Translations under genes and position numbers: made by a program
Shown here: positions 28,350-29,295 of the stretch, one piece after another
How the letters are laid out: every line of letters begins with the position of its first letter
Position numbering within the stretch: the stretch's first letter is position 1
Notes under the pieces: generated by a model
The model's database searches: none
What the model was told of the DNA's origin: nothing
Seen by the model: only the letters and a program-made list of their open reading frames with translations
Origin: a virus
Lineage: Duplodnaviria; Caudoviricetes
Strand: one strand, 5' to 3'
Virus record (IMG/VR): IMGVR_UViG_2974673286_000001
Span: 64,001-128,000 of that record
Length of the DNA stretch: 64,000 nucleotides

Positions 28350-28525
28350 AGTACCTTATATTGCAGGAGAACATGGTTGATGATGATGGGATTGTTATTT
28401 TCGAGGCGGATATTCCTTATGCAGTAGAATATGAAAGTATAATGAATGAAAATGAAGTAGAAGTTCTTTTGGAAGAGATATGGGTAGACTATACAATATT
28501 TCATACCGTACAGGAGGAGATTTAA
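28346..28525 (+). CDS. 59-aa highly acidic protein (not in ORF track)
   Basis: GTGA and TAATG overlaps on both sides, SD ggagg; [59 protein letters not shown]. Confidence 0.75.
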
Positions 28526-29295
28526 TGTTACACACTACGCAGATTAGGATGGTGGGAACAGGATCGGCGTTCTCGAAAAAGTTTTATAATAACAGCGCTT
28601 TAGTTACATTCACAAATGGCTACAACTTACTTATTGACTGCGGACACTCTGTACCGAAAGGTCTTCATGACGCAGACATCCCGTTAGAAAGTATTGATGG
28701 TATCCTTATCACTCATACGCATGCAGACCACATCGGAGGCTTAGAAGAAGTAGCCTTGTATAATAAATTCGTTTTAGGTGGAAGAAAAATTGATCTCCTC
28801 GTACCAAATACGCTAGTAGAATCCTTATGGGAGAATAGCTTAAAAGGTGGACTTCGTTATTCAGATACGTATGATGATCTTAGTTTAAGTGATTATTTCA
28901 CGGTCCGCAGCTTAAAAACGTTTACCTCGGGGGCAGCCCGCACACAACTTGAAGAGAATATAGCTATCAAACTATACCCCACATTCCATGTTTCGCATAT
29001 GGCTAGTTATGCTGTAGGGCTAGAGGATCGTGGAGAGGATAAGGTATTCTATTCCTCAGACACTATATTTGACGAATACCTCATTGACTATGCTCTAACC
29101 TACTCGTGGGTCTTTCACGACTGCCAGTTTTTCACTGGAGGGGTACATGCTAGTCTAGATGAGCTTCTTAACTATATTCCTGAAGAGGATCAAGACCGAG
29201 TGTTCCTCATGCACTATGGAGACAACATGGAAGACTTCTTTACTAAAACAGGTCGGATGAGGTTTGCGTTGCAAGGACGGACATACATTCTTTAA
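28525..29295 (+). CDS. apyc1: Anti-Pycsar cNMP phosphodiesterase Apyc1 (MBL fold)
   Basis: [38 protein letters not shown]...VHA, LMHYGD; matches the recalled Bacillus phage Bsp38/SBSphiJ Apyc1 sequence; start at ATG 28525 after aggagg. Confidence 0.92.

What the first reader, a model, noticed from the sequence alone, without database searches (positions are those of the whole stretch)
28525..29295. Phage anti-Pycsar enzyme Apyc1 hidden as an 'MBL-fold hydrolase'
Seen: HxHxDH MBL motif plus [18 protein letters not shown] and LMHYGD. Known: these define Apyc1, which cleaves the cCMP/cUMP second messengers of Pycsar defence; the protein matches my recollection of the Bsp38/SBSphiJ enzyme. It sits in a sigmaA-driven early operon of tiny genes right after nrd, as expected for a counter-defence gene. 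The family is already described, but generic annotation would miss it.
Basis: partly seen in the sequence, partly recalled or inferred. Interest (0 to 1): 0.85.

Follow-up and report, generated by a model that had tools for sequence, protein, structure and literature searches.

The report
Known phage anti-Pycsar enzyme Apyc1
This gene encodes Apyc1, a phage enzyme that destroys the cyclic-nucleotide alarm signals of the bacterial Pycsar defence; the very same protein has already been named and had its crystal structure solved, so the finding is right but not new.

Summary
Window 28525-29295 (+) is an intact 256-codon ORF with its own ribosome-binding site. Its product is identical at 256 of 256 residues to PDB chain 7T28_A. 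Hobbs et al. 2022 (PMC9117128) deposited that entry as Apyc1 of Bacillus phage Bsp38. It scores 201.8 bits on Pfam PF23023 'Anti-Pycsar_Apyc1', cut-off 50. It is 88% identical to the founding SBSphiJ Apyc1, and every residue that the paper's text names as critical is kept: H64, H66, H69, E74, Y112.

The gene is third of ten in an operon of small genes of unknown function. The operon lies just after nrdE, nrdF and a thioredoxin-like gene, between two terminators and behind a conserved sigma-A-like extended -10 promoter.

Two details are not shown:
- 'Early' timing. In SBSphiJ, cCMP cleavage appears only about 30 min into infection.
- That the quoted motifs 'define' the family.

Verdict: already known, low interest.

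The parts
24624..26723 (+). Context: ribonucleotide reductase alpha subunit (nrdE-like), 699 aa
   Evidence: ORF; colinear with Grass_113 'ribonucleotide-diphosphate reductase subunit alpha'. Named by position and the relative's annotation only; not scanned against a family library here.
26832..27815 (+). Context: ribonucleotide reductase beta subunit (nrdF-like), 327 aa
   Evidence: ORF; the megablast match under it is labelled 'ribonucleotide-diphosphate reductase subunit beta' in Grass.
27815..28051 (+). Context: thioredoxin/glutaredoxin-like protein, 78 aa, last gene of the nrd unit
   Evidence: Pfam PF13192 Thioredoxin_3 at 28.7 bits, cut-off 24.8; Grass_117 is labelled 'thioredoxin'.
28054..28093 (+). 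Intrinsic terminator closing the nrd unit (13-pair stem, then a T-run)
   Evidence: 13 pairs, 5 GC.: -18.1 kcal/mol, z -5.41, 0 of 200 shuffles fold as well. Conserved in Grass and SBSphiJ and annotated as a terminator in Grass.
28091..28119 (+). Sigma-A-like promoter with extended -10: TTGACA, 17 nt, TGgTAGACT
   Evidence: 10 of 12 consensus positions plus TG. Both hexamers are invariant in Grass and SBSphiJ. The pattern class occurs 4 times in the window, all on the + strand, against 0.10 expected. This is a consensus match only; no transcript data.
28152..28349 (+). Small gene 1 of the operon, 65 aa, unknown function
   Evidence: Internal ATG of the ORF at 28110-28349, with AGGAGGG upstream. 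phrog_24464, unknown function, 5.6e-42; no Pfam. Same length as Grass_118.
28346..28525 (+). Small gene 2, 59 aa, unknown function; absent from Grass and SBSphiJ at this place
   Evidence: ORF. No Pfam or PHROG. The only phage-collection matches are 3 records of phage SPP1 (gene 49/orf48, 59.6% identity, 7e-7).
28525..29295 (+). apyc1: anti-Pycsar cyclic-mononucleotide phosphodiesterase, 256 aa, MBL fold
   Evidence: 256 of 256 identical to PDB 7T28_A, which is Bsp38 Apyc1. PF23023 at 201.8 bits, cut-off 50. 88% identical to SBSphiJ Apyc1. Single copy in the 153,268-base virus record.
29311..29502 (+). Small gene 4, 63 aa, unknown function
   Evidence: phrog_11210, unknown function, 1.6e-31; no Pfam. 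An ORF with a similar sequence follows apyc1 in SBSphiJ.
29502..29657 (+). Small gene 5, 51 aa, Cys-rich, unknown function
   Evidence: phrog_19268, unknown function, 1.9e-23; no Pfam. A near-identical ORF is present in SBSphiJ.
29654..29848 (+). Small gene 6, 64 aa, unknown function; SBSphiJ has a 139-aa ORF at this place
   Evidence: no Pfam or PHROG; SBSphiJ ORF list.
29845..30063 (+). Small gene 7, 72 aa, Cys-rich, unknown function
   Evidence: phrog_5504, unknown function, 3.7e-32.
30066..30446 (+). Gene 8, 126 aa, unknown function
   Evidence: phrog_17088, unknown function, 1.6e-62.
30453..30701 (+). Small gene 9, 82 aa, unknown function; no counterpart in the SBSphiJ ORF list or the Grass gene table at this place
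   Evidence: phrog_17649 and three other unknown-function PHROGs. tblastn finds 66 phage records, 62 Staphylococcus and 4 Bacillus. Grass gene table; SBSphiJ ORF list.
30698..30910 (+). Small gene 10, 70 aa, unknown function; last gene of the operon
   Evidence: phrog_6394, unknown function, 2.4e-30.
30909..30941 (+). Terminator-like hairpin (9-pair stem, 10-nt loop, T-run) closing the operon
   Evidence: Sequence. Fold -12.4 kcal/mol, z -2.93, 1 of 200 shuffles folds as well. The scan missed it; it allows loops of 3-8 only. Grass annotates a terminator at the matching place.

Best explanation
The gene at 28525-29295 (+) is apyc1, the anti-Pycsar protein 1 of a Bacillus-infecting Herelleviridae-type phage, with the sequence crystallised as Bsp38 Apyc1.

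Mechanism, taken from the published family: a homodimeric MBL-fold class II phosphodiesterase. The HxHxDH motif and further His/Asp ligands hold two Zn2+ ions that bind the cyclic phosphate. A loop from the opposing protomer, carrying Y112, reaches into the pocket. The enzyme opens 3',5'-cyclic mononucleotides to 5'-NMPs with relaxed base specificity. It thereby removes the cCMP/cUMP made by host Pycsar cyclases before they can activate the cell-killing effector.

Shown here: sequence identity to the crystallised Bsp38 protein, family membership, conservation of the catalytic residues, and the operon anatomy.

Inferred: that this particular protein cleaves cCMP/cUMP (by 88% identity to the assayed SBSphiJ enzyme); that it protects this phage from Pycsar during infection; and that transcription comes from the sigma-A-like promoter at 28091-28119.
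For: -: 256 of 256 residues identical to PDB 7T28_A (E 8.4e-175). The next best hits are 7U2S (3.3e-57) and 7U2R (3.7e-49), both titled Apyc1.
- the data-availability statement of PMC9117128 assigns 7T28 to Bsp38 Apyc1.
- PF23023 Anti-Pycsar_Apyc1 at 201.8 bits (cut-off 50), covering residues 5-254.
- 88% identity to the SBSphiJ ORF at L002:3355-4128 and to Grass gp119. H64, H66, D68, H69, E74, Y112, H155, D179 and H230 are invariant.
- (sections read in full): SBSphiJ Apyc1 cleaves all cNMPs. H64A/H66A/H69A is catalytically inactive, and E74 and Y112 are required. Apyc1 abolishes cUMP-dependent activation of PycTIR and rescues phage T5 from Pycsar in E. coli.
- one copy in the 153,268-base virus record.
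- a terminator-promoter-operon-terminator layout, with a leader that is 96% conserved per column across three phages.
Against: - No text I could read states that the Bsp38 protein itself was assayed. All 5 mentions of 'Bsp38' in PMC9117128 concern the crystal structure, its crystallisation and refinement, a figure legend and the PDB deposit. The figures (Fig. 2j, Extended Data Fig. 6c) and supplements were not visible.
- The stretch just after Y112 differs from SBSphiJ: SDT-YDDLS against PDEDSPEPE, one residue shorter. Tesson et al. report that homologues with altered loop lengths cleave poorly.
- Necessity in a Bacillus phage has not been shown; Hobbs et al. state that apyc1-deletion phages were left to future work.
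- Over 80% of detected Apyc1 homologues sit in non-mobile bacterial DNA, where a housekeeping role in cNMP signalling is proposed. The fold and activity alone therefore do not prove an anti-defence role.
- 'Early' expression is at odds with cCMP cleavage first seen about 30 min into SBSphiJ infection.
Confidence: 0.95

Rival explanations
1. It is an active cNMP phosphodiesterase of the Apyc1 family, but its main role in this phage is not Pycsar evasion. It might instead reset host cAMP/cGMP-type signalling, or blunt another cNMP-dependent defence. In that case anti-Pycsar activity would be a side effect of relaxed specificity.
For: - SBSphiJ Apyc1 cleaves all cNMPs with equal efficiency.
- More than 80% of 2301 detected Apyc1 instances lie in non-mobile bacterial DNA, and a regulatory origin is proposed.
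- No apyc1-deletion Bacillus phage has been tested.
Against: - Apyc1 is sufficient to cancel Pycsar in vivo and blocks PycTIR activation in vitro.
- The closely related host enzymes YhfI and MBL phosphodiesterase prefer cAMP/cGMP, whereas relaxed pyrimidine cleavage is particular to Apyc1.
- In the SBSphiJ family the gene is present exclusively in the cCMP-cleaving phages and lies in a variable locus, as accessory counter-defence genes do.
Confidence: 0.04
2. It is a phage RNase Z/RNase BN-type enzyme that trims tRNA 3' ends, as several relatives' GenBank records label it.
For: - Labels 'ribonuclease BN', 'ribonuclease Z' or 'RNAse Z' appear on some homologues among the 60 rows listed.
- The best NCBIfam model is TIGR02651 RNase_Z.
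- ELAC2 and RNase Z appear among the weaker PDB hits.
Against: - TIGR02651 scores 57.1 bits against a cut-off of 292.95 and matches only residues 7-166.
- B. subtilis-type RNase Z 1y44 scores E 0.009, against 8.4e-175 for Apyc1.
- No tRNA gene lies in the 64-kb window.
- The identical protein was crystallised and described as Apyc1.
Confidence: 0.01

Closest known systems
Apyc1 of Bacillus phage Bsp38 (PDB 7T28; Hobbs et al. 2022, PMC9117128)
   Same: Identical at all 256 residues. Same family and the same solved MBL-fold structure; the paper describes Apyc1 enzymes as homodimers.
   Different: Nothing at protein level. The PDB entry title is only 'Putative metal-dependent hydrolase'.
Apyc1 of Bacillus phage SBSphiJ (gene 147), founding member
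   Same: - 88% identical (86.4% by tblastn).
- H64, H66, D68, H69, E74 and Y112 carry the same numbering.
- Same place after nrdF and the thioredoxin-like gene, behind the same terminator and promoter.
   Different: - In SBSphiJ, apyc1 is the first gene after the promoter. Here two small genes (65 and 59 aa) precede it.
- Residues 113-120 differ, with a one-residue deletion.
- Downstream gene content differs: 64 aa here against 139 aa there, and an extra 82-aa gene here.
Paenibacillus Apyc1 proteins (PDB 7U2R, 7U2S)
   Same: - Full-length homologues at E 3.7e-49 and 3.3e-57.
- They share GTGxAFxKKxxNN, HxHxDH, E74, and the H155, D179, H198, H208 and H230 positions.
   Different: - Bacterial, not phage.
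- Y112 is not kept in the phmmer alignments.
- HDCQ reads HEVQ in one of them, and LMHYGD reads LMHYDD or LKHYSD.
B. subtilis YhfI and other MBL class II phosphodiesterases
   Same: MBL fold, HxHxDH di-zinc site, homodimer, cNMP hydrolysis.
   Different: - They prefer cAMP/cGMP and lack the Apyc1-specific loop.
- Only a weak local sequence match: 6kns_A, E 3.6e-6, residues 21-73. That 6KNS is YhfI is my recollection, not a tool result.
- NCBIfam 'cyclic nucleotide-degrading phosphodiesterase' scores 23.1 bits against a cut-off of 400.
RNase Z / ELAC (tRNA 3' processing)
   Same: MBL fold and the N-terminal HxHxDH region.
   Different: Far below the family cut-offs (57.1 against 292.95 bits). 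The match covers only about the first 160 residues. Different substrate.

Membership tests
Apyc1 (Pfam PF23023, Anti-Pycsar_Apyc1) | Full-length match to the family profile above its curated cut-off | tested here: met
   201.8 bits against a cut-off of 50, E 1.6e-59, residues 5-254 on profile positions 3-244 of 250. The genome-level search gives the same result, 201.7 bits.
Apyc1 (Pfam PF23023, Anti-Pycsar_Apyc1) | Close sequence relationship to experimentally characterised members | tested here: met
   256 of 256 identical to 7T28_A, which is Bsp38 Apyc1. 88% identical to SBSphiJ Apyc1.
Apyc1 (Pfam PF23023, Anti-Pycsar_Apyc1) | HxHxDH motif that coordinates two Zn2+ ions (H64, H66, H69 needed for activity in SBSphiJ) | tested here: met
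   H64-T-H66-A-D68-H69 in the translation. Invariant in the three phage proteins and in 7U2S and 7U2R.
Apyc1 (Pfam PF23023, Anti-Pycsar_Apyc1) | E74 and Y112 (opposing protomer), required for cCMP hydrolysis | tested here: met
   E74 and Y112 are present with the same numbering. The requirement is stated.
Apyc1 (Pfam PF23023, Anti-Pycsar_Apyc1) | Apyc1-specific extended loop reaching into the nucleotide pocket, of intact length | tested here: inconclusive
   The sequence up to Y112 is identical to SBSphiJ. Residues 113-120 differ and are one residue shorter. The legend of Extended Data Fig. 8b lists Bsp38 among the structures used to show the loop, but I could not see the figure or measure the loop.
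Apyc1 (Pfam PF23023, Anti-Pycsar_Apyc1) | Hydrolysis of cCMP and cUMP (relaxed cNMP specificity) to 5'-NMP | not testable with these tools
   Shown for SBSphiJ Apyc1 and for tested homologues. The text I read does not say whether the Bsp38 protein was among those assayed.
Apyc1 (Pfam PF23023, Anti-Pycsar_Apyc1) | Protects a phage from Pycsar in vivo | not testable with these tools
   Shown by expressing SBSphiJ Apyc1 in E. coli with phage T5. No deletion Bacillus phage has been made.
RNase Z (NCBIfam TIGR02651 / NF000801) | Score above the equivalog cut-off over the full length | tested here: not met
   57.1 bits against 292.95, and 55.4 against 252. The matches cover only residues 7-166 and 6-98.
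Cyclic nucleotide-degrading phosphodiesterase (NCBIfam NF041851) | Score above the equivalog cut-off | tested here: not met
   23.1 bits against a cut-off of 400.

The most novel reading that the evidence does not exclude
The ten-gene operon around apyc1 (28091-30941) could be a counter-defence island. On this reading, one or more of its nine small unknown-function genes inhibit other Bacillus defence systems. The candidates include the SPP1 gene-49-like 59-aa gene directly upstream, translationally coupled to apyc1, and the 82-aa gene shared mostly with Staphylococcus phages. Hobbs et al. already raised this possibility for the SBSphiJ locus. It is untested, and gene content differs here from Grass and SBSphiJ.
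Probability: 0.35. Interest if true: 0.45.

Novelty: already known. Interest (0 to 1): 0.08.

Why it matters
It matters little as a discovery. The family was named in 2022, this exact sequence is in the PDB, and Pfam now detects the family; AntiDefenseFinder detects it too by the paper's account, though I did not run it here. The practical point is about annotation. NCBIfam has no model that names it, and none of the 60 listed homologue rows in public phage records is labelled Apyc1. Records of this phage group therefore under-report a validated counter-defence gene. The surrounding variable operon of small unknown genes is a reasonable place to look for further counter-defence genes.

Tried and rejected
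- RNase Z/BN reading: rejected on scores. No tRNA genes are in the window.
- Whether the Bsp38 enzyme itself was assayed: I searched the library for 'Bsp38' (10 papers, of which only PMC9117128 concerns Apyc1). I read all 5 mentions in that paper, sections 5, 6, 7, 16 and 27 in full, and the outline. No statement was found. Figures and supplements were not available and may hold the answer.
- Later work on Apyc1: a listing of 28 of the 34 papers that hold the term. I read passages of PMC11724313, PMC13728456 and bioRxiv 10.1101/2025.07.12.664507. None changes the reading, and none assigns a function to the neighbouring small genes.
- Neighbour functions: 9 of 9 small neighbours have no Pfam hit at E 0.01. 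Seven of the 9 match PHROGs, all of unknown function, and 2 of 9 match none.
- No structure prediction or fold search was run, because an experimental structure of the identical sequence exists.
- The large protein-database searches and sequencing-run tools were not used, because the identity is settled without them. Expression timing therefore remains untested.
- Searches failed on a one-base coordinate slip and were repeated correctly.

Full report
**Observation.** Window 28525-29295 on the + strand is an open reading frame of 256 codons plus stop. A GGAGGAG ribosome-binding site lies 5 nt before the ATG. The ATG overlaps the stop of the preceding 59-aa ORF (TAATG). A longer in-frame ORF from 28480 exists (271 aa), but the crystallised chain aligns from the M at 28525.
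- GTGSAFSKK (11-19) and NN (22-23)
- HTHADH (64-69)
- HDCQ (198-201) and VHA (207-209)
- LMHYGD (228-233)

**Identity.** A sequence search of the Protein Data Bank returns chain 7T28_A at E 8.4e-175. The printed alignment is identical at all 256 positions. The data-availability statement of Hobbs et al. 2022 (Nature 605:522, PMC9117128) assigns 7T28 to 'Bsp38 Apyc1'.

The next hits are the two Paenibacillus Apyc1 structures, 7U2S (3.3e-57) and 7U2R (3.7e-49). After them scores drop steeply: an unnamed MBL protein 7FCT at 3.2e-13, ELAC2 at 3.7e-9, and B. subtilis-type RNase Z 1y44 at 0.009.

Pfam gives PF23023 'Anti-Pycsar protein Apyc1' at 201.8 bits against a cut-off of 50, covering residues 5-254. 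The generic Lactamase_B models score 60.6 and 43.3 bits.

The window lies in a virus record of 153,268 bases that holds one such gene. The nearest records that the phage collection would show are:
- Bacillus phage Grass: 88.9% DNA identity over 91% of a 2.3-kb query.
- The SBSphiJ group: 87.7-93.8% identity over 42-91% of the query.

In all, 29 records matched and 3 of them covered at least 80% of the query.

**Comparison with the founding member.** The ORF at L002:3355-4128 of SBSphiJ follows nrdF and the thioredoxin-like gene, as here. It is 88% identical to the window protein, as is Grass gp119.

The paper's text states that H64A/H66A/H69A is catalytically inactive. It also states that E74 and Y112 of the opposing protomer are needed for cCMP hydrolysis. 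All five residues, and D68, have the same numbers here and are invariant. H155, D179 and H230 are also kept in the three phage proteins and in both Paenibacillus structures. I take these to be the remaining MBL metal ligands, from general knowledge of MBL motifs III-V.

The one notable difference lies just after Y112: SDT-YDDLS here against PDEDSPEPE in SBSphiJ, one residue shorter. This may belong to the Apyc1-specific loop. Tesson et al. report that homologues with shortened or lengthened loops cleave weakly. I could not measure the loop. The legend of Extended Data Fig. 8b lists the Bsp38 structure among those used to illustrate it.

**Mechanism.** This is taken from the sections of PMC9117128 that I read in full. 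Apyc1 is a homodimeric class II phosphodiesterase with an MBL fold. Its HxHxDH motif holds two Zn2+ ions that position the cyclic phosphate. The SBSphiJ enzyme hydrolyses all cNMPs, and its cCMP and cUMP products were compared with 5'- and 3'-NMP standards, the text naming 5'-CMP as the released product. [quoted passage not shown]

What is shown for the window's protein is identity to the crystallised Bsp38 protein and conservation of the catalytic residues. Its activity is inferred. All five mentions of Bsp38 in that paper concern the crystal structure, its crystallisation and refinement, a figure legend and the PDB deposit. The figures and supplements that might list the assayed homologues were not visible to me.

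**Surroundings.** Upstream lie a 699-aa ORF and a 327-aa ORF, colinear with Grass ribonucleotide reductase alpha and beta. A thioredoxin-like ORF follows (PF13192).

A strong hairpin with a T-run follows at 28054-28093: 13 pairs, -18.1 kcal/mol, z -5.41.

Immediately after it comes TTGACA, 17 nt, TGgTAGACT at 28091-28119, matching 10 of 12 consensus positions plus the extended -10 TG. The terminator, promoter and leader are 96% identical per column among the window, Grass and SBSphiJ, and both hexamers are invariant. The pattern TTGACA-N14-TGNTANNNT occurs 4 times in the window, all on the + strand, against 0.10 expected from shuffles.

Ten tightly packed genes follow, of 65, 59, 256 (apyc1), 63, 51, 64, 72, 126, 82 and 70 aa. 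They end at a hairpin with a T-run at about 30909-30941, where Grass annotates a terminator.

None of the nine small neighbours has a Pfam match at E 0.01. Seven match PHROGs of unknown function and two match none.

Gene content varies between phages:
- SBSphiJ has apyc1 directly behind the promoter.
- Grass has one small gene before apyc1; the window has two.
- The 59-aa and 82-aa genes have no counterpart at these places in the Grass gene table or the SBSphiJ ORF list.
- SBSphiJ has a 139-aa ORF where the window has 64 aa.

This fits the paper's description of a variable locus of small unknown proteins next to Apyc1.

- 'Early'. A sigma-A-like promoter is consistent with host-polymerase transcription. 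But this is a consensus match with no transcript evidence. Hobbs et al. report that cCMP-degrading activity appears only about 30 min into SBSphiJ infection.
- 'These motifs define Apyc1'. No text I read says so, and two of them vary in the Paenibacillus members.
- 'Generic annotation would miss it'. This is true for NCBIfam, whose best model is RNase_Z at 57.1 bits against a cut-off of 292.95, with nothing over its cut-off. It is also true of relatives' records. tblastn found 198 phage records: 13 at 80-90% identity, 19 at 60-80% and 166 below 60%. Of the 60 rows listed, taken at even steps down the ranking, 0 carry an Apyc1 or anti-Pycsar label. The labels read metal-dependent hydrolase, ribonuclease BN/Z, MBL-fold hydrolase or hypothetical protein. 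It is no longer true for Pfam. AntiDefenseFinder is reported to detect Apyc1 widely, but I did not run it on this gene.

**Rivals.**
- An RNase Z/BN role is rejected on the scores above. In addition, no tRNA gene lies in the window.
- A subtler rival is that the enzyme's main use is not Pycsar evasion. This draws on the equal cleavage of all cNMPs. It also draws on the finding that over 80% of 2301 detected Apyc1 homologues lie in non-mobile bacterial DNA, where a regulatory origin is proposed. Against it stand three points. Apyc1 is sufficient against Pycsar. Host relatives prefer purine cNMPs. In the SBSphiJ family the gene is present exclusively in the cCMP-cleaving phages. No deletion Bacillus phage has been reported in what I read.

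**Novelty and verdict.** The gene is a correct identification of an already named, already crystallised protein. Nothing here departs from the published family. The only open items are whether this exact protein was assayed, when the operon is transcribed, and what the nine small neighbours do. The last is the most novel reading the evidence leaves open, and Hobbs et al. already suggested it for SBSphiJ. Interest is low.

**Not available.** Supplements and figures of the papers could not be seen.

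Noticed in passing
window 28346-28525 (+): The 59-aa ORF directly upstream of apyc1 is translationally coupled to it (TAATG). It has no Pfam or PHROG family. In the phage collection it matches only 3 records of the siphovirus SPP1 (gene 49/orf48, 59.6% identity, E 7e-7). Grass and SBSphiJ lack it at this place. It looks like a small mobile gene shared between unrelated Bacillus phages.
   Followed up: partly
window 30453-30701 (+): The 82-aa ORF in the same operon has no counterpart in the Grass gene table or the SBSphiJ ORF list at this place. tblastn finds it in 66 phage records, of which 62 are Staphylococcus phages and 4 are Bacillus phages. 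Function unknown.
   Followed up: partly
window 17961-17989, 21606-21634, 28091-28119, 36105-36133 (+): Four exact matches to TTGACA-N14-TGNTANNNT (perfect -35 plus extended -10), all on the + strand, against 0.10 expected by chance. This is probably a class of host-sigma-A-type promoters that partition this part of the phage genome into transcription units.
   Followed up: partly
window 28040-28160 against L001:4241-4362 and L002:3241-3362: The terminator-promoter-leader between the nrd unit and the apyc1 operon is 96% identical per column in three phages. The surrounding 2.3 kb is about 88-89% identical in the aligned parts. The regulatory region is thus kept while the genes behind it are swapped.
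   Followed up: partly
window 26711-26842 (+), between the nrdE-like and nrdF-like genes: Only a 43-aa ORF sits between the two reductase subunit genes here. Grass has two hypothetical genes there, Grass_114 (393 bases) and Grass_115 (177 bases). This is another variable spot.
   Followed up: no
window 32086-32114 (+): The best promoter-like site in the scanned 8.5 kb: TTGACA, 17 nt, TATGAT, 11 of 12 positions. It lies just after the 98-aa ORF at 31769-32065, whose Grass counterpart is labelled 'DNA binding protein'.
   Followed up: no
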